Assembly: GCA_002753395.1 (NCBI GenBank)
Contig: PEAB01000009.1
Coordinates: forward strand, 5,127-69,126
Origin: Nitrospirae bacterium MYbinv3
GTDB taxonomy: Bacteria; Nitrospirota; Thermodesulfovibrionia; Thermodesulfovibrionales; Magnetobacteriaceae
Direction of reading: 5' to 3'
DNA: 64,000 nt
In this document: one piece after another, positions 54,396 to 61,951 of the stretch
Layout of the letters: each line of letters starts with the position of its first letter
How positions within the stretch are numbered: position 1 is the stretch's first letter
Program-made: the position numbers and the translations under genes
The notes under the pieces: generated by a model
What the model was told of the DNA's origin: nothing
Databases searched by the model: none
The model's input: the letters and a program-made list of their open reading frames with translations, nothing else

Positions 54396-54890
54396 CTACT
54401 GATTTGCACTTTTCTTGCTGGATACTGCTGTTGACAACCAAAACAGCAAAAACAACACTGATGCAACAACCGTTAATCCACCAGCAATAATCATAAAGAC
54501 GCTGTTTCTCAAGAGGATAGCAGTGATCTTTAGGCTGCTCAGGGGAGTGAAGTCTAAGGCAATGTTACACAAGAGGCGTTTTTCAGTCTTTAGTCGTAAG
54601 GAAAACAGAAAGACGTTTAGGAAGCCTGAGCCGGTTATGTTTCCTACCGGCACGATGACAACGTCAAAGCGCTGTTGTTCTAGTTCGTTGGGCAGCCTAA
54701 AAAGACTAAAGGCGTCCGTGTAGGGATAGACGTAGACGTGGTTGACGTCGGTGTACTTTTCTGCTGCTAGTTTGCCATGTTGGTGGGTCAACAGAGATAT
54801 CTCACTTTGGGGGTACATGGCTTTGAGCCTGGCCAGTACCCTATCCAAGAGTTGAAAGCTGGTAGAGCGTATGATTAAGATTTTCGTCAT
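54396..54890 (-). CDS. Hypothetical protein (glycosyltransferase-9 N-domain-like, C-terminal TM)
   Basis: KILIIRS, YPQSEISLL, FDVVIV resemble the heptosyltransferase N-domain; weak. Confidence 0.4.
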   Translation of the reverse strand: MTKILIIRSTSFQLLDRVLARLKAMYPQSEISLLTHQHGKLAAEKYTDVNHVYVYPYTDAFSLFRLPNELEQQRFDVVIVPVGNITGSGFLNVFLFSLRLKTEKRLLCNIALDFTPLSSLKITAILLRNSVFMIIAGGLTVVASVLFLLFWLSTAVSSKKSANQ

Positions 54891-55699
54891 GTAATAACAG
54901 TTACTTGTTCATATAATTTAGGTATCTTGTCTTGCCGTAATCTGAATTTTGTTCCATGATTGTGACCTGTCCTTGCATCAAAGTCAACTAGTATATCCGC
55001 ATGTTCAATAGCAGTTAAAAACTTTTCAAAGCTGAATTTCTGAAGCATCATAATCTTTTCATAAGAAAAATACTCTGCCCCGTCTTCATTTTTAACTTTT
55101 GCTTGTACATAAAAACAATTTAAGAGCTTAGTTCCAGCCTTATGAAATAAATCATCGAAACCCCAATATGGTTGAGGGTTAAGCTCACCTAATCCGGCCT
55201 TGTTTTCAACTGATTTCAACCATATAGAATGTTTCTCAGAAACAGATAGGGCATCAAATGAGATTAAAACCTTTTTTTCACTTCGATTAATTGTAACCAT
55301 AAACCCCCTATCGCTTCTTGATTGACCATGAATTGTCTGGCGAAAACTCATTTCTTCAGCATGATATTTTGCTCCAGCCTCTTGATGGGGCCAACCATAT
55401 TTAAGAAGGAATATCTTAGGTACAAATTTTAATGCACGTGGTGAGGGTTCCATGTGAAAAAGAGTTATTAATGAAGTTGAATTTAATCTTTGACATTTCA
55501 ATTCCCATTCAGCAGCATTAGGGATTGGTAGGTTATTTTCTTTAATACCTAATAAATCTTCTATAGTGTTGCCAATTCCACCTGCATTTCCGGTGCGTGC
55601 ATTTTTTATCCATCCCATCTCTTTAATACCCATCAGCTTATCTATTAACTCATCTTTTGTGTATGTATTCATTTTATCTAAATTATCTGAGGTTTCCAA
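54887..55699 (-). CDS. MvaI/BcnI-family restriction endonuclease
   Basis: NAGGIGNTIEDLLGIKENN, EWELK, ITLFHMEP, HNHGTKFR; AT-rich; coupled to a methylase. Confidence 0.85.
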   Translation of the reverse strand: METSDNLDKMNTYTKDELIDKLMGIKEMGWIKNARTGNAGGIGNTIEDLLGIKENNLPIPNAAEWELKCQRLNSTSLITLFHMEPSPRALKFVPKIFLLKYGWPHQEAGAKYHAEEMSFRQTIHGQSRSDRGFMVTINRSEKKVLISFDALSVSEKHSIWLKSVENKAGLGELNPQPYWGFDDLFHKAGTKLLNCFYVQAKVKNEDGAEYFSYEKIMMLQKFSFEKFLTAIEHADILVDFDARTGHNHGTKFRLRQDKIPKLYEQVTVIT

Positions 55700-56565
55700 A
55701 AGTCAAGCAAATATTCAAAGGTTACACCCATTGTTATATAATTACTTGGCCATCCGAATATCCCAATTTGATTTACAATATTTGTTCTATCCCAAATAAT
55801 AATGTTTCGTAATTCATAGCCTCTTGACCTCAATTCTTCTATTAAAGATACATGTATTGTAATTCTCTGGTTGTCCCACCACATATCAGGGACATTTATA
55901 ATACAATGCCCCTTTGGCTTTAGCAGGGGCAAGATCGACTGAAAAATATCACCCATAGCTTGACAATAGTCATTTAACGGCATTGTTCCCAGGTCTCTTG
56001 TGTCTTGTGAATATTGCTCTATCTTGCCAAGCTGCTCATTATTCCTAAAACGCCTTGACTTGTTTTTCCTTTCTCTATTTAGGAGGTTTGAGTAAGGAGG
56101 AGATGTCCAAACAAGACTTATCGTCTCCTTCTCAAAAAATTTATAGATATTTCTGGCATCATCATTTATGAAAAGTTGCTGAGAGGAATTAAAGATACAA
56201 ACATTATTCAATCTTGATAATGAAAGGGCGCCATAACTCTCTTGTAAATCAAATTGAACTGCATTACGGTCTAAATCACGTGCGGCAACAAGGGTTGTAC
56301 CACTTCCCACAAAGGGATCAACAACTAATTCGCCTTCATGCGTGAAAAGCGCAATTACCTTCTGTGCCAGTGAGATTGGAAATGTTGCAGGATGCAGCTT
56401 CTTGTCTCTTATATCCCTCTTTTCATAAGTAAACTGCCAAACCCCAAGTTGACTTTTTAGCCATTCCTTTGGTGTCATGCAATTAATATGAGTTGGTTTA
56501 CAATTGCACGTTCTCTTATAAGCAATGTCAATTGGCTTTGTTATCTCAGTATCAGATGAGTTCAT
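55678..56565 (-). CDS. N4-cytosine DNA methyltransferase
   Basis: HPATFP, VVDPFVGSGTT, WTSPPY; overlaps the nuclease start. Confidence 0.88.
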   Translation of the reverse strand: MNSSDTEITKPIDIAYKRTCNCKPTHINCMTPKEWLKSQLGVWQFTYEKRDIRDKKLHPATFPISLAQKVIALFTHEGELVVDPFVGSGTTLVAARDLDRNAVQFDLQESYGALSLSRLNNVCIFNSSQQLFINDDARNIYKFFEKETISLVWTSPPYSNLLNRERKNKSRRFRNNEQLGKIEQYSQDTRDLGTMPLNDYCQAMGDIFQSILPLLKPKGHCIINVPDMWWDNQRITIHVSLIEELRSRGYELRNIIIWDRTNIVNQIGIFGWPSNYITMGVTFEYLLDFWKPQII

Positions 56566-56578
56566 TCTTAGCGAAATA

Positions 56579-57685
56579 TCATATCAGTTGTCTTATGTAT
56601 TCCTCAACAGCGTTTATGTCTGACCATACCTTTAAGGGGTCTTTGGTGACCTTAAAGACGGTATCTGGGTCTTTTAGACCATTGCCGGTTAGGGTGCAAA
56701 CGATGGTGGAGTCTTTTTTAAAGTAGCCTCTGGCGTTTAGCTTTATTAGACCTGCTATTGAGGCAGCGCTGGCGGGTTCGCAAAAGACGCCCTCCATCCG
56801 TGCAGCTAATGTGTAGGCATCTAATATCTCCTCGTCGGTGACCATGTCTATCAGGCCGCCCGATTCGTCCCTGGCTTGCTCGGCAAACTTCCAGCTGGCC
56901 GGGTTGCCAATCCTGATGGCAGAGGCTATGGTCTCAGGGGTTTTGACCACGCTCCCTCTAACAATAGGGGCCGCGCCAGATGCCTGGATCCCTACCATAA
57001 CAGGGAGCGTGTCCACCTTGGCATTGTCTTTGTACTCCTTGTACCCCTTCCAGTAGGCCGTGATGTTACCGGCATTTCCCACCGGAAGCACATGATAGTC
57101 AGGTGGTGCGCCTAACTGATCGCAGACCTCAAAGGCCGCTGTTTTCTGACCAGCTATCCTGTAAGGATTTATTGAGTTGACAAGGGTTATAGGGTATTTC
57201 TCTACTACCCCTTTTACAATCTTGAGCGCCTCATCAAAGTTCCCCTTTATCTGCAATACAGCGGCCCCATGAATAAGGGCCTGAACGAGCTTGCCAAGCG
57301 CAATCTTGCCCTCAGGTATCAATACAATGCAGCAGATGCCAGCTCTTGCCGCATAGGCCGCAGCAGAGGCCGATGTATTACCGGTAGAGGCGCAGATAAC
57401 AGCCCGTGCCCCATCCTCAAGGGCCTTGGATATGGCTAGGGTCATTCCACGGTCCTTAAACGAACCAGTAGGATTAAGACCATCGAACTTAAAATAGACC
57501 CTGCCCTCAAATCCTATCTTATTACACAAGTTCATGGCGCTGATCAAAGGCGTATTGCCCTCGTTTAGCGAAACAACCGGTGTGCTTGCACTAACTGGCA
57601 GGTAATCCCTGTATGTTTCGATAATACCGTTCCACGCTGTGTTTTTTTTCACTAACACGCTGCCCAGGTCGTCTTCATTGACCAT
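56579..57685 (-). CDS. thrC: Threonine synthase (canonical short type)
   Basis: [46 protein letters not shown]. Confidence 0.93.
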
Positions 57686-57693
57686 TTATCCTC

Positions 57694-57930
57694 CTATTGA
57701 ATTATATCTCCTTCGACGAGTTCAACGTCCACACCTGCTTGTCTAAGGGCCGCAATAGCCTGGTCAACCTTTTCGTTTTCGCCATCTATCTCTAATATCA
57801 TCTCCCCGACGGTCTCTGTCACGCGAGCCCTTCGGATGTTTGGTATCACGTCAAACTGTTTAGCTACCGTGTATATAACGGGTTCCTTAATTAGGTGTTG
57901 CGGAAACGTTAGTTTTATTCGCTTTTTCAT
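57694..57930 (-). CDS. Stand-alone NIL domain protein
   Basis: LTFP....EPVI......FDV..NIRRA.V....G.MILE; start set at ATG 57930. Confidence 0.8.
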   Translation of the reverse strand: MKKRIKLTFPQHLIKEPVIYTVAKQFDVIPNIRRARVTETVGEMILEIDGENEKVDQAIAALRQAGVDVELVEGDIIQ

Positions 57931-57947
57931 CTTATCCCCCGGTGTAG

Positions 57948-58226
57948 TCAAAAGCAGCCCCCTGCAATGGCAGGAACGATGGAGAGCTCATCGCCGTCTT
58001 TGAGAACTGACTCTTCCGCCTTTAAAAACCTTATATCCTCTTCATTTACATATATGTTAACAAATCTCCTTATCTTTCCCCCCTCCGATATCCTCTCCGC
58101 AATACCTGGATATCTGGTGTCAAGGTCTCCAATAATGGAGATAACAGTACCAGCATTAGCCTCTACCTCCTGTTTACCCTCCGTTAGTCTCTGTAGAGGA
58201 GTGGGAATTCTTACTTTTACAGACAT
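57948..58226 (-). CDS. MoaD/CysO-like ubiquitin-fold sulfur carrier ending GG-CF
   Basis: VRIPTPL, FVNIYVNEEDIRFL, SIVPAIAGGCF; DNA reads GGG GGC TGC TTT TGA. Confidence 0.9.
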   Translation of the reverse strand: MSVKVRIPTPLQRLTEGKQEVEANAGTVISIIGDLDTRYPGIAERISEGGKIRRFVNIYVNEEDIRFLKAEESVLKDGDELSIVPAIAGGCF

Positions 58227-58237
58227 AAAGCCTCCAT

Positions 58238-59473
58238 TTATCTGATCTTACTTAATACTTCCTCAAAGGATTTCATGTTTGGTGTTATATGGTGCGGCTT
58301 AACAGTCTTACCGTTAAGTGCCTCCTGAGTCTTTAATCCATTACCGGTTACACAGATAACGGTTGTCTCGTCCCTTCCTATTATGCCACGCTCTATGAGT
58401 TTACGAGTGACTGCCACGGTGACACCGCCTGCTGTCTCAGCAAATATGCCCTCTGTACGTGCCAACAGTTTTATGCCATCTATAATTTCGTCATCTGTTA
58501 CGTCCTCGCCCGCTCCCCCGGTTTCCTGCACAATCTTAGTGGCATAATAACCATCGGCAGGGTTTCCTATGGCAAGAGATTTAGCTATCGTATGGGGCTT
58601 GATCGGTCTTATGACATCGGTCTTACTCTTAAGCGCATGGACTATGGGGTTACACCCCAGAGCCTGTGCAGCAAAGACCCTCGTATTGAGCTTCTCAATA
58701 ATGCCGATCTCATAGAATTCCTTAAAGCTCTTCCATACCTTTGTCAGCAGAGAACCGCTTGCACAGGGAACAACCACGTTGTCTGGGGCAACCCAGTCTA
58801 ATTGCTCTATCGTCTCAAAACCAAGCGTCTTTGATCCCTCGGCATAAAACGGCCTTATGTTTATGTTTACGAATGCCCACCTATACTTATTCGCTATCTC
58901 ACTGCACAACCGGTTAACCTCGTCATAGTTACCATCAACTGCTATAAGGTTCGGCTCATAAATGAGCGACGCCACTATCTTACTTGCCTCAAGGGTGGCG
59001 GGTATAAAGATAAACCTTTTAAATCCGGATTTAGCGCCGTGTGCTGAAACGGAATGAGCCAGATTCCCCGTTGATGCACAGGCAACGGTATCAAAACCAA
59101 ACTCCTTGGCCTTAGTAAGGGCAACCGCCACAACCCGATCCTTAAACGAAAGGGTTGGATGCACAACGGTATCATCCTTTACGTATAGGTTATTAACACC
59201 AAGCTCACTGGCAAGGTTCTCTGTCCGTACCAGTGGCGTGAAACCAGAATGGAGACCTACCTGTGGTTCACCATCTATAGGTAGCAACTCCCTGTACCTC
59301 CAAAGGTTCTTCTGTCGTTGAAGTATCGTCTCTCTCGTAAGAGCCTGCTTTACAGCCTTATAGTCATAAACAACCTCAAGAGGACCAAAACAAAACTCAC
59401 ACACGTAAATCGGCTCTATCGGATACTCCCTTGCACATTCCCGGCACTTCAATCCCACAACAAAACCCATCAA
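58238..59473 (-). CDS. Threonine-synthase-like PLP enzyme with N-terminal Zn ribbon
   Basis: CREC/CEFC, HPTLSFKDR, CASTGNLA, ETAGG, TGNGLKT. Confidence 0.88.
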   Translation of the reverse strand: MMGFVVGLKCRECAREYPIEPIYVCEFCFGPLEVVYDYKAVKQALTRETILQRQKNLWRYRELLPIDGEPQVGLHSGFTPLVRTENLASELGVNNLYVKDDTVVHPTLSFKDRVVAVALTKAKEFGFDTVACASTGNLAHSVSAHGAKSGFKRFIFIPATLEASKIVASLIYEPNLIAVDGNYDEVNRLCSEIANKYRWAFVNINIRPFYAEGSKTLGFETIEQLDWVAPDNVVVPCASGSLLTKVWKSFKEFYEIGIIEKLNTRVFAAQALGCNPIVHALKSKTDVIRPIKPHTIAKSLAIGNPADGYYATKIVQETGGAGEDVTDDEIIDGIKLLARTEGIFAETAGGVTVAVTRKLIERGIIGRDETTVICVTGNGLKTQEALNGKTVKPHHITPNMKSFEEVLSKIR

Positions 59474-59610
59474 TTAACCTCCTTTCTTTCAAAGCATTAG
59501 TATCTTTTACTCTGACTATTGTAATTAATTCTAACAGCTTTTTGAAAGGGGACGAATTGCCTCATCTAAAATCTATACGAAACAAAACCCGTTGCCTCAC
59601 ATAAAAATAT

Positions 59611-59889
59611 GGTAGTCCTGCACAAGTAGTGGTAACAGTAAACTTAACACCCTCCCCTCACCCCTAATGCTGTTGACTTAAGCATTATTGATGTATAGCA
59701 AGTAACATCTTTAGCAGCCACGCCTGACATTTACGGGGTCAAGGGGACGAGTCCCCTTGTGGGAGGGTCTAGGGAGGGCAAAGCCCTCTCTATTTTTTAG
59801 CATCTTCACAGCCTTAAGTCAACAGCATTACCCCTAACCCCTCCCACCAAGGGAGAGGGATTGAATATCACTCCCTCTGCAGGACTACC
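59611..59889. mobile_element. Family B element interrupted by an IS4-like MITE
   Basis: TIR GGTAGTCCTGCA (12/12, 18/21 extended); matches the 102-bp uninterrupted copies. Confidence 0.85.
59665..59830. mobile_element. IS4-family-like MITE (166 bp) containing a family A repeat at 59735-59790
   Basis: Perfect 18-bp TIR TAATGCTGTTGACTTAAG; 11-bp TSD CCCCT(C/A)ACCCC at 59654-59664 and 59831-59841. Confidence 0.85.
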
Positions 59890-59911
59890 CAAAATAGCGC
59901 CATCACTACTT

Positions 59912-60226
59912 CTACAGGACTACCAAGTTTATTAGCTCCTCAGAAAGTCGATCTTCATAGAGGAATTCTCGCACGTAAAAATGCAGCTTAATGTCTGGAA
60001 TCTCAGGGGGTGACTTTATTTTTGTACAATCTTTCCAGAACTCTGGCAGCTTCTCTGGATGCCTTAGTACCTGCTTACTTAGATCCTGCCAAACGCTTAT
60101 CCACTCTTTAGTATAATGGTCTTTTAGGTCTGCCTCCTGGATTTCTTTAATCCACTGCCAGTACCGCCCGCTGTTGAGCAGTTTATCGAGTTCCTTTCTT
60201 ACCCTCTTTTCTTTTGACTTATTCAA
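59912..60226 (-). pseudogene. Truncated hypothetical gene downstream of the hsp70 paralog
   Basis: Frame runs into a solo family B terminus (59902-59924), which supplies the TAG stop. Confidence 0.6.
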
Positions 60227-61951
60227 TGTCCTCTAAGTCTTCCTCTATATCTTCTATCTTTTCAATAAGCTCTCCCTCAAGGTCATCTATTATACCATCA
60301 TCTTCTTTATCTCTTAATGCACGTTGATACCTCTCACCAATCTCTATCAACTCATCCCTCTGTTTAGCATCAATATCCTGTCTGTCAGAGAGGGCTTTAT
60401 ACCTTGAGATTATGTAATTCAATATCTCTTGATCTCCGCTGTCAGTCCCCTTTTCCCTAACCTCTTTGGTGCGCACATCAAGGGTAACCTCTTTGCGGTT
60501 GTCATACCCTTTCTGATCCACAGTGATGTGGACGATGCCCTCCTTGTCGTAGGCAAACTCCGTTGTAACGATAGTGTTGCTTGGAGCCGGCTTTAGTGTA
60601 AAGAAGAACTCCCCTATTAAGGTATTCTCTTTACACGAGTAACTCTCTCCTTGATATACCTGTACCTTAACGGCTTCCTAATTTCTAACCATTGTATAAT
60701 AACTCTCTGACTTGCGTACTGGTATCTTTGTGTTTCTTCTTATAATCACTGAGAAGTAATCGGCGTCACCGGTCTGCATATCAAAATCGTCCGCTGTTTT
60801 TACCCCCAGGGAATGTGCTGTAACATCAAGCAGGATATGACCTATGTGCTCACCGGTTATAAGCCCGCTCTGAACTGCAGCGCCAAGAGAGACACACAGA
60901 TCAGGGTCTACAGAGTGCAGTATCGGTCGATCAAAGATACCCTCTAAAGACTTTTGAACAATCGGCGTCCTTGTGGATCCCCCAACTAACAGTACCTCGC
61001 TAATGTCCTTGCTTGAAAGGTTTGCCTCTATCAGGGCATCGTGAACCTTTTCGATGGTCTTTTCAACGAGGTTTCTTATCATCTCCTCATATTCAACCCT
61101 GGAGACCTCCAGGTTGAGGTTTACGGGTTCACCATCCATCATTACAACAGAGGCCTCCTTTACAACTGCAAAGGGGCTGTCAGACAGAAGTATCTTTGTC
61201 CTCTCTGCTATACTTTTTAGCCTTACTTGTAGGACAACATCAGGCGTTGAGAGATCAAGACCCGTTTTCTCTCTTAACCTGCGAACAAACATATCAACAA
61301 GGCTTTGGTCAAAGTCGTCTCCACCTAAGGCGGTGTCCCCGCATGAGGCCAACACCTCCTTTATCTCGCCCTTTATCTCAAGTATGGAGACGTCAAACGT
61401 CCCGCCGCCTAGGTCGTAAACGAGAATATAGAGGGTACTGAGTTTGTCAGTCATAGAGACATAGTCATAGACTAAGGATGCTGCCGTCGGTTCGTTGACA
61501 ATCCGCAGTACCTCAAGGCCAGCCAACTCACCTGCCGATATAGTTGCCCGCCTCTGCGCGTCGTTAAAGTAGGCCGGAACTGTTATAACAACCTTTTTTA
61601 TCTCAGAACCTATATGCTTTTCAGCCCTTTCTATTAGACGTTTGAGGATAAAGGATGATATCTCAGGGGGTGAAAACTCCTTATTGCAAGCTTCACCATT
61701 GTCTCCTTTCCCATGAGCCTCTTTATTGACCTTACAGTGTGCTGAGGATAAGCAGATAAACGATTAAGAGCCTCCCGGCCAACCAATATCTGTCTCTTTT
61801 TTTCATCATAGTTTACGACAGAGGGCATAATTGGAGTGTCAGCCTCTACAGGGATGATAACAGGTTTTCCATTTTTCAGGTAAGATATGCACGAGTTTGT
61901 GGTTCCCAGATCGATTCCACAAATAATTGATTGTCCTTTGGGATCTTTCAC
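60219..61951 (-). pseudogene. Hsp70/DnaK paralog with a 1-bp deletion near 61688 and an in-frame TAG at 60678-60680
   Basis: GIDLGTTNS, ITVPAYFNDAQR, NEPTAA, DLGGGTFDVS, LGGDDFD, VGGSTR; repaired length about 577 aa. Confidence 0.9.

What the first reader, a model, noticed from the sequence alone, without database searches (positions are those of the whole stretch)
56579..59473. Second threonine-synthase-like enzyme, masked sulfur carrier (GG-CF) and NIL protein: possible thiocarboxylate route to a sulfur amino acid
Seen: a Zn-ribbon ThrC paralog, a MoaD/CysO-like protein whose diglycine is capped by Cys-Phe, a stand-alone NIL domain and canonical thrC form one operon. Established: capped carriers are unmasked by JAMM proteases (QbsE/QbsD, HcyS/HcyD, CysO/Mec), ThrC acts on O-phosphohomoserine, and NIL domains occur in MetN and in methanogen homocysteine biosynthesis. 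Inference: the paralog may transfer thiocarboxylate sulfur to O-phosphohomoserine to make homocysteine. No JAMM or MoeB gene lies in this window.
Basis: partly seen in the sequence, partly recalled or inferred. Interest (0 to 1): 0.65.

Follow-up and report, generated by a model that had tools for sequence, protein, structure and literature searches.

The report
MetM/MetO homocysteine operon with NIL, thrC
Four tightly packed genes in this magnetotactic Nitrospirota genome most likely encode the recently described MetM/MetO route, which makes the methionine precursor homocysteine from O-phosphohomoserine using a sulfur-carrying protein; here the operon also holds the ordinary threonine synthase and a small methionine-sensor-like NIL protein that published accounts of the route do not mention.

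Summary
On the minus strand, 8-17 bases apart, lie four genes: a 410-aa threonine-synthase paralogue with a zinc ribbon, a 92-aa CysO-like carrier ending GG-CF, a 78-aa NIL protein, and canonical thrC.

- **Family:** the paralogue is 53-80% identical to relatives across many phyla. A carrier gene follows in 70 of 80 loci, and a SAM riboswitch precedes the gene in 7 of 16.
- **Missing parts:** the genome encodes them elsewhere: one JAMM protease beside cysM, a hom-tusA-moeB operon, and the homoserine phosphotransferase HomK. In a relative these same kinds of genes form one cluster (hom-tusA-thiF-JAB-metM-metO-NIL-thrC-homK-lysC).
- **Other routes:** no metX, metA or DUF39 was found. A MetY-like gene exists.
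- **NIL:** it has the fold of the methionine-binding C2 domain of MetN and keeps its key Asn. It lies beside metM/metO in 37 of 80 loci and is often fused behind the carrier's GG, but it is dispensable in many genomes. I found no paper describing it in this role.
- **Open point:** no methionine synthase was detected.

Verdict: a known pathway in a new variant. Interest is moderate.

The parts
58238..59470 (-). metM-like gene: a 410-aa ThrC-family PLP enzyme, the predicted MetO-thiocarboxylate-dependent homocysteine synthase. The PLP lysine is K110, in the SFKDR motif.
   Evidence: PALP 217.6 bits. It is 53-80% identical to 80 loci from many phyla, but only 35% identical to the operon's own ThrC and scores at most 206 bits against solved ThrCs. 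K110 and R112 are invariant.
59390..59446 (-). N-terminal zinc-ribbon-like motif, C9-x2-C12 ... C24-x2-C27, in the metM-like protein.
   Evidence: Pfam NinF 32.9 bits. The four Cys are invariant or at least 90% conserved in 30 diverse homologues.
57948..58226 (-). metO-like gene: a 92-aa CysO-type ubiquitin-like sulfur carrier.
   Evidence: ThiS family 58.2 bits. It scores 84 bits to the ThiS/MoaD-family chain 4N6E_B and 77 bits to chain 3DWG_C (Cfp10A, which I recall as M. tuberculosis CysO). It is one of only two ThiS-family genes in the genome. A carrier gene follows metM in 70 of 80 loci.
57951..57962 (-). Carrier C-terminus: G89-G90 followed by the cap C91-F92.
   Evidence: Read directly from the sequence.
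57694..57930 (-). Stand-alone NIL-domain protein of 78 aa (85 aa if the TTG at 57951 is used). N31 is the counterpart of MetN N295.
   Evidence: PF09383 67.6 bits. AF2 model pLDDT 92.4 with a beta-alpha-beta-beta-alpha-beta fold. The best fold match is the E. coli MetN C2 domain, 3TUI_C, TM 0.86, rmsd 0.9 A. N31 aligns to MetN N295. There is no conserved Cys.
56579..57685 (-). Canonical threonine synthase thrC, 368 aa.
   Evidence: TIGR00260 332.5 bits. It scores 502, 440, 433 and 430 bits to solved threonine synthases 2ZSJ, 1UIM, 2D1F and 6CGQ. It is the only such gene in the genome.
59518..59546 (-). Sigma-70-like promoter match (TTCAAA-17-TACAAT) about 45 nt upstream of metM. There is no riboswitch.
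   Evidence: Consensus scan, a weak match. Rfam E-value scan of 55500-61000 returned nothing.

Best explanation
This is a four-gene operon at the O-phosphohomoserine branch point.

**Substrate supply.** Homoserine dehydrogenase (contig C99) and the non-canonical homoserine phosphotransferase HomK (C39) supply O-phosphohomoserine. ThrC converts it to threonine. The ThrC paralogue, MetM, converts it to homocysteine.

**Sulfur supply.** Sulfur comes from the C-terminal thiocarboxylate of the carrier MetO.
- MetO is made with a GG-CF tail that has to be trimmed. The genome's only JAMM/Mec-type protease (C105, next to a cysM-like gene) is the candidate.
- The exposed Gly is adenylated by the MoeB-type E1 on C99.
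- This E1 has no rhodanese domain. It probably receives sulfur from the TusA-like protein encoded 12 bases upstream of it.

**Chemistry.** MetM eliminates phosphate from PLP-bound O-phosphohomoserine and adds the thiocarboxylate sulfur at C-gamma. Homocysteine is then released, either directly or, by analogy with CysM/CysO/Mec, after an S-to-N acyl shift and JAMM hydrolysis.

**Shared carrier.** The genome has only one CysO/MetO-type carrier, so the same protein probably also serves the CysM-like enzyme.

**NIL.** The NIL protein is an accessory part, not a catalytic one. It has the fold and the key Asn of the methionine-binding C2 domain of MetN. It most likely binds methionine, or a close metabolite, and tunes MetM/MetO relative to ThrC.

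**Shown here:** gene content, family membership, synteny, fold.

**Inferred:** every enzymatic step, the processing of the carrier, and the ligand and target of NIL.
For: **Published pathway.** MetM, MetO, Mec and MoeZ are described for S. albulus. MetM homologues occur in cyanobacteria at 51.6% identity, each with a MetO-like neighbour.

**Family.**
- The window protein is 56-60% identical to cyanobacterial homologues and 56-61% identical to actinobacterial ones.
- A carrier gene follows metM in 70 of 80 loci.
- SAM-I riboswitches lie directly upstream of 7 of 16 homologous genes tested.
- A ThiF-MetM fusion exists.

**Distinct from ThrC.** MetM is 35% identical to the operon's ThrC. It scores at most 206 bits against solved ThrCs, where ThrC itself scores 430-502 bits.

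**Helpers in the same genome.**
- One JAB protein with the motif HSHPDHDAYFSEED, beside cysM.
- A hom-tusA-moeB operon.
- HomK at 542.5 bits, above its cut-off.

**Synteny in relatives.**
- In a relative whose MetM is 81% identical, the cluster reads hom-tusA-thiF-JAB-metM-metO-NIL-thrC-homK-lysC.
- Its Hom, TusA, ThiF and HomK are 71%, 72%, 78% and 63% identical to the proteins scattered across this genome.
- An unrelated phylum has MetM, a MetO::NIL fusion, ThiF, TusA, a CysM-like gene and JAB together.

**Alternative routes are weak.** No MetX, MetA or DUF39 was found.

**NIL.** The Asn and the GG are invariant in 87 fusion proteins. N295 of MetN contacts L-methionine, and the N295A change abolishes binding (PMC6233128).
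Against: - **No direct comparison with the reference.** I could not compare the window proteins with the characterised S. albulus proteins. The paper is not held and no Streptomyces sequence was retrieved, so orthology rests on an indirect chain.
- **A second candidate enzyme.** A MetY-like protein passing TIGR01326 (651 bits) exists in the genome.
- **No methionine synthase.** No MetH or MetE domain was detected in this genome. The MetH homocysteine domain is also absent from 24 of the 26 genomes searched: this one and 25 relatives of the order. The fate of the product is therefore unverified.
- **E1 differs from MoeZ.** It lacks the rhodanese domain.
- **The JAB is not the syntenic one.** The genome's only JAB is 30% identical to the JAB of the relative's cluster.
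- **NIL is dispensable.** Twenty of 43 MetM genomes without an adjacent NIL have no NIL domain at all. AF2 of a natural MetO-NIL fusion gave pTM 0.54, so no fixed contact between the two domains was predicted.
- **No local regulation signal.** There is no riboswitch here.
- **No expression or biochemical data.**
Confidence: 0.75

Rival explanations
1. The carrier is essentially CysO. It serves the CysM-like cysteine synthase, as in M. tuberculosis, while the ThrC paralogue uses free sulfide or does other gamma-replacement chemistry without the carrier.
For: The carrier's best matches among solved structures are the ThiS/MoaD-family chains 4N6E_B and 3DWG_C, which I recall as CysO proteins. The only JAMM gene in the genome sits beside a cysM-like gene, not beside metM. 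CysM-like genes lie in 26 of the 80 metM loci.
Against: The carrier gene follows metM directly in 70 of 80 loci, including cyanobacterial loci that have no CysM nearby. S. albulus MetM needs MetO-thiocarboxylate. The CysM-like protein is not especially close to the CysO-dependent M. tuberculosis enzyme: 179 bits, against 235 bits for ordinary cysteine synthases. Dual use of one carrier is more likely than exclusive use by CysM.
Confidence: 0.1
2. Homocysteine is made mainly by the MetY-like sulfhydrylase, with sulfide or with the carrier thiocarboxylate as in the Wolinella HcyS/MetY system. The ThrC paralogue is a redundant or differently specialised enzyme, for example a second threonine synthase, a deaminase or a cysteate-type synthase.
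For: A MetY-like protein is present: Cys_Met_Meta_PP 437 bits and TIGR01326 651 bits. MetY lies directly after metM in two Acidobacteriota loci. The M. aeruginosa homologue showed threonine deaminase activity in vitro.
Against: No MetX or MetA was found to make an O-acyl-homoserine substrate. Cysteate synthase TIGR03844 scores only 59.8 bits against a cut-off of 324.9. A canonical ThrC already sits in the same operon. Homologues carry SAM riboswitches.
Confidence: 0.1
3. NIL is not a metabolite sensor. It is a carrier-associated module: a removable C-terminal cap or chaperone that keeps MetO inactive or protected until a JAMM protease frees the GG end. The split form seen here would be a relic of that arrangement.
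For: Natural MetO-GG-linker-NIL fusions occur in 5 of 80 loci. All 120 top database hits to one such fusion carry both domains. The GG is invariant at the junction and the linker is mostly 5-10 residues. The junction has lower model confidence than the two domains. JAB genes lie in the fusion clusters. In the window the carrier is also capped, and NIL starts 17 bases later.
Against: The NIL fold and its Asn are those of a ligand-binding regulatory domain. Chloroflexota place NIL before the carrier, in the order metM-NIL-metO. The two roles do not exclude each other.
Confidence: 0.25

Closest known systems
MetM/MetO (with Mec and MoeZ) O-phospho-L-homoserine route to homocysteine, Streptomyces albulus (Hasebe et al. 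2024; listed in GapMind 2026, PMC13759103)
   Same: A ThrC-family PLP enzyme is followed by a GG sulfur carrier. A JAMM hydrolase and an E1 are present in the genome. O-phosphohomoserine is available. Homologues in other phyla are SAM-riboswitch controlled, as reported for S. albulus.
   Different: The window has no SAM riboswitch. The E1 lacks the rhodanese domain and is paired with a TusA-like protein. An extra NIL gene is present. Canonical thrC is in the same operon. The cap is CF. Identity to the S. albulus proteins could not be measured.
CysM/CysO/Mec cysteine synthesis, Mycobacterium tuberculosis
   Same: The carrier matches the ThiS/MoaD-family chains 3DWG_C and 4N6E_B (CysO proteins, from my recall) over its full length at 77-84 bits. 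A CysM-like gene sits next to the JAMM gene. The logic of thiocarboxylate addition followed by JAMM hydrolysis is the same.
   Different: The acceptor enzyme encoded beside the carrier is ThrC-like, and the substrate is O-phosphohomoserine, not O-phosphoserine. The CysM-like protein is not specifically close to M. tuberculosis CysM.
HcyS/HcyD/HcyF/MetY protein-thiocarboxylate homocysteine pathway, Wolinella succinogenes (from my own knowledge)
   Same: It also uses a capped ubiquitin-like carrier, a JAMM protease and an E1, and its product is homocysteine.
   Different: Its acceptor enzyme is MetY acting on O-acetylhomoserine. Here no acyltransferase was found, and the MetY-like gene lies elsewhere in the genome.
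C2 (NIL) regulatory domain of the MetN subunit of the E. coli MetNI methionine importer
   Same: The fold matches (TM 0.86, rmsd 0.9 A). The NI(R/I) motif is conserved, and its Asn aligns to N295, which contacts L-methionine.
   Different: The protein here stands alone, or is fused to the carrier in other genomes, and is not attached to an ABC ATPase. Its ligand and target are unknown.
DUF39 (MA1821) plus NIL/ferredoxin (MA1822) homocysteine pathway of methanogens and Desulfovibrio
   Same: A NIL domain is linked to homocysteine synthesis.
   Different: No DUF39 gene is present in the genome. This NIL has no ferredoxin domain and no conserved Cys. The substrate is O-phosphohomoserine rather than aspartate semialdehyde.

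Membership tests
MetM/MetO thiocarboxylate-dependent homocysteine synthesis | A ThrC-family PLP enzyme that is distinct from the housekeeping threonine synthase | tested here: met
   PALP 217.6 bits. 35% identity to the operon's ThrC. At most 206 bits to solved ThrCs, where ThrC itself scores 430-502 bits.
MetM/MetO thiocarboxylate-dependent homocysteine synthesis | An adjacent ThiS/MoaD-family carrier with a C-terminal GG | tested here: met
   The carrier gene lies 11 bases downstream, and its GG is at residues 89-90. The pairing is conserved in 70 of 80 loci.
MetM/MetO thiocarboxylate-dependent homocysteine synthesis | Sequence orthology to the characterised S. albulus MetM (A0A059WBP2) and MetO (A0A059W7F4) | not testable with these tools
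   The reference sequences could not be obtained. The indirect chain is this: the M. aeruginosa homologue is 51.6% identical to S. albulus MetM and its neighbour is 47% identical to MetO, and the window protein is 56-60% identical to cyanobacterial homologues.
MetM/MetO thiocarboxylate-dependent homocysteine synthesis | A Mec-type JAMM hydrolase in the genome | tested here: met
   One Prok-JAB protein at 76.7 bits, carrying the HxH...S..D motif, lies beside cysM on C105. It is only 30% identical to the JAB of the relative's syntenic cluster.
MetM/MetO thiocarboxylate-dependent homocysteine synthesis | A MoeZ-type E1 (adenylyltransferase fused to rhodanese) | tested here: inconclusive
   The MoeB-type E1 on C99 scores 308 bits against a cut-off of 266 for NF004281. 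It is 266 aa long and has no rhodanese domain. A TusA-like gene lies 12 bases upstream. The orthologous pair sits next to metM in a relative.
MetM/MetO thiocarboxylate-dependent homocysteine synthesis | A supply of O-phosphohomoserine | tested here: met
   HomK TIGR02535 scores 542.5 bits against a cut-off of 446.3. A motif search over the genome's ORFs found no ThrB-type GHMP kinase.
MetM/MetO thiocarboxylate-dependent homocysteine synthesis | Catalysis: O-phosphohomoserine plus MetO-thiocarboxylate gives homocysteine | not testable with these tools
   This needs an enzyme assay.
Canonical threonine synthase (the 368-aa protein) | Full-length, high-scoring match to characterised ThrC | tested here: met
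   TIGR00260 332.5 bits. 502 bits to 2ZSJ and 430-440 bits to 1UIM, 2D1F and 6CGQ.
NIL / MetN C2 regulatory domain | Domain profile, beta-alpha-beta-beta-alpha-beta fold, and a conserved Asn at the MetN N295 position | tested here: met
   PF09383 67.6 bits. TM 0.86 to 3TUI_C. N31 aligns to N295, and this Asn is invariant in 87 fusion proteins.
NIL / MetN C2 regulatory domain | Binds L-methionine and transmits inhibition | not testable with these tools
   This needs binding and kinetic assays.
DUF39 + NIL/ferredoxin homocysteine pathway | A DUF39 (HcyBio) protein, and a NIL domain fused to 4Fe-4S ferredoxin | tested here: not met
   PF01837 is absent from the genome. The NIL protein is 78 aa long and has no Cys.
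Cysteate synthase (ThrC paralogue of methanogens) | Match to TIGR03844 above its cut-off | tested here: not met
   59.8 bits against a cut-off of 324.9.

The most novel reading that the evidence does not exclude
NIL is a dedicated third component of protein-thiocarboxylate sulfur amino-acid synthesis. In many lineages it is translated as a carrier-GG-NIL precursor that a JAMM protease must cut, much as ubiquitin is made fused to other proteins. Once freed, it acts as a methionine-responsive brake. In this lineage the brake would sit at the O-phosphohomoserine fork between ThrC and MetM, replacing the SAM riboswitch that other phyla use. Separately, the order seems to lack the usual methionine synthases, so an unrecognised homocysteine methylation step may accompany this operon.
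Probability: 0.3. Interest if true: 0.65.

Novelty: new variant of a known kind. Interest (0 to 1): 0.4.

Why it matters
**Annotation.** Databases label MetM "threonine synthase" and the carrier "MoaD". Methionine synthesis in Nitrospirota, cyanobacteria, Chloroflexota, Planctomycetota, Verrucomicrobiota and others is therefore mis-annotated, and false auxotrophies are predicted.

**Reading of this locus.** This locus, together with the intact cluster of a relative, gives a coherent genomic account of the whole route. It runs from aspartate kinase to homocysteine and threonine, and it includes a TusA-plus-E1 sulfur relay in place of MoeZ.

**NIL.** The recurrent NIL partner and its fusions to the carrier point to an undescribed layer of control or maturation, which can be tested with a few purified proteins.

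**Open question.** The apparent lack of MetH and MetE in the order raises the question of how the pathway is completed.

Tried and rejected
1. **Reading Hasebe et al. 2024.** The paper is not held under its DOI or its PMC id.
2. **Fetching a Streptomyces MetM.** I queried with a 72.7%-GC actinobacterial homologue. The top 120 hits were all Acidimicrobiia or unnamed.
3. **Riboswitch or leader upstream of metM.** Nothing was found in the window or in the nearest relative, L017.
4. **Methionine synthase.**
   - PF02574 and PF01717 gave no hit.
   - A motif search gave nothing.
   - A zinc-site pattern over ORFs of 290-420 aa gave only unrelated proteins.
5. **Canonical ThrB by GHMP motif.** None was found, only IspE and a sugar-kinase-like ORF.
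6. **Whether the CysM-like protein is specifically the CysO-dependent type.** Sequence does not say.
7. **AF2 of a natural MetO-NIL fusion.** The aim was to see an interface between the two domains. The model gave pTM 0.54 and no fixed arrangement, which is a weak negative.
8. **Cap versus NIL association.** Seventeen of 23 capped carriers have an adjacent NIL, against 16 of 44 free-GG carriers. About 20 cyanobacterial loci, all with a free GG and no NIL, drive the difference, so I do not rely on it.
9. **DUF39/NIL-ferredoxin pathway and cysteate synthase.** Both were rejected.
Full report
**What is there**

The window belongs to a 3.7-Mb Nitrospirota assembly that is 96.6% complete. Its closest named relative is Candidatus Magnetobacterium, whose MetM-like protein is 89% identical.

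Four ORFs lie head to tail on the minus strand.
- **ThrC paralogue.** 410 aa, counted from the ATG at 59470, which follows AAGGAGG.
- **Carrier.** A 92-aa ThiS-family protein ending AIAGG-CF.
- **NIL protein.** 78 aa from the ATG at 57930, or 85 aa from an overlapping TTG.
- **ThrC.** 368 aa.

The gaps between them are 11, 17 and 8 bases, each with a Shine-Dalgarno-like run.

Pfam gives PALP plus a 4-Cys motif scored as NinF, then ThiS, NIL and PALP. The four cysteines and the PLP lysine K110 are invariant or nearly so in 30 diverse homologues.

**Two different enzymes**

The 368-aa protein is the housekeeping threonine synthase. It scores 502 bits against Aquifex ThrC and 430-440 bits against three further solved threonine synthases, 1UIM, 2D1F and 6CGQ.

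The 410-aa protein scores only 170-206 bits against those same four and is 35% identical to its operon partner. Yet it is 53-80% identical to proteins in 80 genomes. These include Nitrospirota, cyanobacteria, Actinomycetota, Chloroflexota, Planctomycetota, Verrucomicrobiota, Acidobacteriota and Aquificaceae.

TIGR00260 passes both proteins, so the database label "threonine synthase" does not separate them. Cysteate synthase is excluded: 59.8 bits against a cut-off of 324.9.

**Link to the known pathway**

GapMind 2026 lists the S. albulus route, citing Hasebe et al. 2024. [quoted passage not shown] GapMind notes that MetM is "often misannotated" as threonine synthase.

A cyanobacterial study reports a MetM homologue at 51.6% identity with a MetO-like neighbour at 47%. 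It also states that S. albulus metM has a SAM riboswitch.

My comparisons fit this.
- A carrier gene follows the MetM-like gene in 70 of 80 loci.
- SAM-I riboswitches at 68-96 bits lie 70-260 nt upstream of 7 of 16 homologues from six phyla.
- A ThiF-MetM fusion exists.

I could not obtain the S. albulus sequences or the paper itself. Orthology is therefore well supported but indirect.

- **JAMM protease.** The genome has one clear JAMM protein, 152 aa with the motif HSHPDHDAYFSEED. It lies immediately downstream of a CysM-like gene and a second CysK-like gene.
- **E1 enzymes.** There are three.
  - One is 266 aa, has no rhodanese domain and passes the MoeB subfamily model. It lies in the operon hom, tusA-like, moeB.
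  - The second is a 244-aa MoeB/ThiF-type protein standing alone on contig C7.
  - The third belongs to an unrelated E1/E2/JAB cluster.
- **Carriers.** Only two ThiS-family genes exist: ThiS itself and the window's carrier.
- **Substrate.** O-phosphohomoserine can be made by HomK. A motif search over the genome's ORFs found no ThrB-type GHMP kinase.
- **Other routes.** MetX, MetA and DUF39 are absent.
- **MetY.** A MetY-like protein is present. It passes the O-acetylhomoserine sulfhydrylase subfamily model and carries a ~25-residue insertion. No enzyme to make its usual substrate was found.

**The strongest contextual evidence**

A Thermodesulfovibrionales relative whose MetM is 81% identical carries all of this in one row. 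The order is: aminotransferase, homoserine dehydrogenase, TusA, ThiF, JAB, MetM, MetO, NIL, ThrC, HomK, aspartate kinase.

Its Hom, TusA, ThiF and HomK are 71%, 72%, 78% and 63% identical to the proteins that this genome encodes on contigs C99 and C39. The window's operon is therefore a fragment of a larger aspartate-family and sulfur-carrier cluster. The C99 E1 with its TusA partner is the cognate activating system.

The complete genome of Ca. Magnetomonas has metM-metO-NIL-thrC, then a restriction-modification insert, then homK. In the window a methyltransferase and a partner gene likewise follow thrC.

Other phyla carry related sets.
- Ca. Acidulodesulfobacterium has MetM, a MetO::NIL fusion, ThiF, TusA, a CysM-like gene and JAB in one operon.
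- Nitrospira-type loci read CysM-MoeB-MetM-MetO-NIL-MoeB-Mec.

One carrier thus appears to serve both a CysM-like and a MetM enzyme.

**The cap**

The caps share no consensus. The nearest relatives have SC, AFIM, RGI and K, where the window has CF.

The cap is therefore a masking tail to be removed, not a motif with its own function. The genome's JAMM protein is the candidate for trimming. It is only 30% identical to the JAB of the relative's cluster.

**The NIL protein**

- **Fold and key residue.**
  - The AF2 model is confident (pLDDT 92.4) and has a beta-alpha-beta-beta-alpha-beta fold.
  - Its best structural matches are the C2 domain of E. coli MetN (TM 0.86, rmsd 0.9 A) and other MetN NIL domains.
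  - ACT domains of SerA and SerB come next.
  - N31 aligns with MetN N295, and A35 with A299.
  - This Asn is invariant in 87 carrier-NIL fusions.
  - The family has no conserved cysteine, so a persulfide role is unlikely.
- **Distribution.** NIL lies beside metM/metO in 37 of 80 loci. The order is metM-metO-NIL in most phyla and metM-NIL-metO in Chloroflexota.
- **Fusions.** It is fused after the carrier's GG in five loci. All 120 best database hits to one such fusion carry both domains. The junction GG is invariant and the linker is mostly 5-10 residues, ending in the basic residues that begin the free NIL proteins.
- **Model of a fusion.** Both domains are confident, but pTM is 0.54 and confidence dips at the junction. 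This points to two independent domains on a flexible, cleavable tether.
- **Not essential.** Of 43 MetM genomes with no adjacent NIL, 20 have no NIL domain at all. Most of the rest are cyanobacteria, whose NIL genes lie away from metM.

The searches I could run found no paper that links NIL to this pathway. Many earlier notes of this scan describe the same association in other genomes. I treat those as leads, and the tests above are my own.

**How it most likely works**

HomK makes O-phosphohomoserine, and ThrC and MetM compete for it. MetO is trimmed by the JAMM protein, adenylated by the C99 E1 and thiocarboxylated through the TusA-like protein. MetM adds that sulfur to the substrate to give homocysteine. 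The same carrier probably also feeds the CysM-like enzyme.

NIL probably binds methionine or a close relative and tunes the branch. It stands in an operon that, unlike many homologues, has no SAM riboswitch. All enzymatic steps and the role of NIL are inferences.

**What remains unexplained**

- **Methionine synthase.**
  - I found no MetH homocysteine domain and no MetE-type domain in this genome.
  - The MetH domain is present in only 2 of the 26 genomes searched, this one and 25 relatives of the order.
  - PF01717 does not detect the MesC-only Methanosarcina control (PMC7857596). A divergent core methionine synthase may therefore have escaped.
  - My pattern search gave no candidate.
- **MetY-like enzyme.** Its role is also open.

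**Verdict**

The thiocarboxylate route from O-phosphohomoserine is already published, so the core is not new.

The variant features here are the following:
- the recurrent NIL partner, and its carrier fusions elsewhere;
- thrC in the same operon;
- a TusA-plus-E1 pair instead of MoeZ;
- one carrier apparently shared with CysM;
- no riboswitch.

Noticed in passing
own genome, contig C91:16841-21117 (minus strand): An E1-like protein (413 aa), an E2/UBC-like protein (182 aa) and a 714-aa protein with an E2-like N-terminus and a JAB motif (HTHPNNLNVFMSTTDM) lie together. The cluster looks like a bacterial ubiquitin-type conjugation or defence cluster (Bil/Cap2-like), not sulfur metabolism.
   Followed up: no
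own genome and 25 relatives of the order: No MetH homocysteine domain (PF02574) and no MetE-type domain (PF01717) was found in this genome. PF02574 is present in only 2 of the 26 genomes searched. The enzyme that methylates homocysteine in this lineage is not identified.
   Followed up: partly
own genome, contig C21:28310-29674: A MetY-like O-acetylhomoserine sulfhydrylase homologue (454 aa, ~25-residue insertion near residue 100) is present, although no MetX or MetA acyltransferase was detected. MetY also follows metM directly in two Acidobacteriota loci (L047, L068).
   Followed up: partly
window 59611-59924: Inverted-repeat, MITE-like elements lie about 140 nt upstream of metM. In a relative, this is the position where the JAB, ThiF, TusA and hom genes precede metM, so the elements may mark the breakpoint that scattered the cluster.
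   Followed up: no
window 54887-56565 (minus strand): A DNA methyltransferase-like gene (295 aa, SPPY motif) and an overlapping 270-aa partner lie directly after thrC. Ca. Magnetomonas has a different restriction-modification insert at the same place, between thrC and homK (L102).
   Followed up: partly
window 60678-61951 (minus strand): An Hsp70/DnaK-like gene is read as two separate ORFs, a 105-aa N-terminal part and a 282-aa part. It may be a frameshift, a pseudogene or an assembly error.
   Followed up: no
P0210, P0244, P0180, P0216, P0218 (distant homologues): Zinc-ribbon ThrC-like proteins occur fused to a LeuA allosteric domain, to a PadR DNA-binding domain, or to a ThiF E1 domain.
   Followed up: no
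L037:8481-9032: A Nitrospinaceae locus encodes a 183-aa protein with two tandem NIL domains, next to a TusA-like gene and downstream of metM-metO-moeB-cysM.
   Followed up: no
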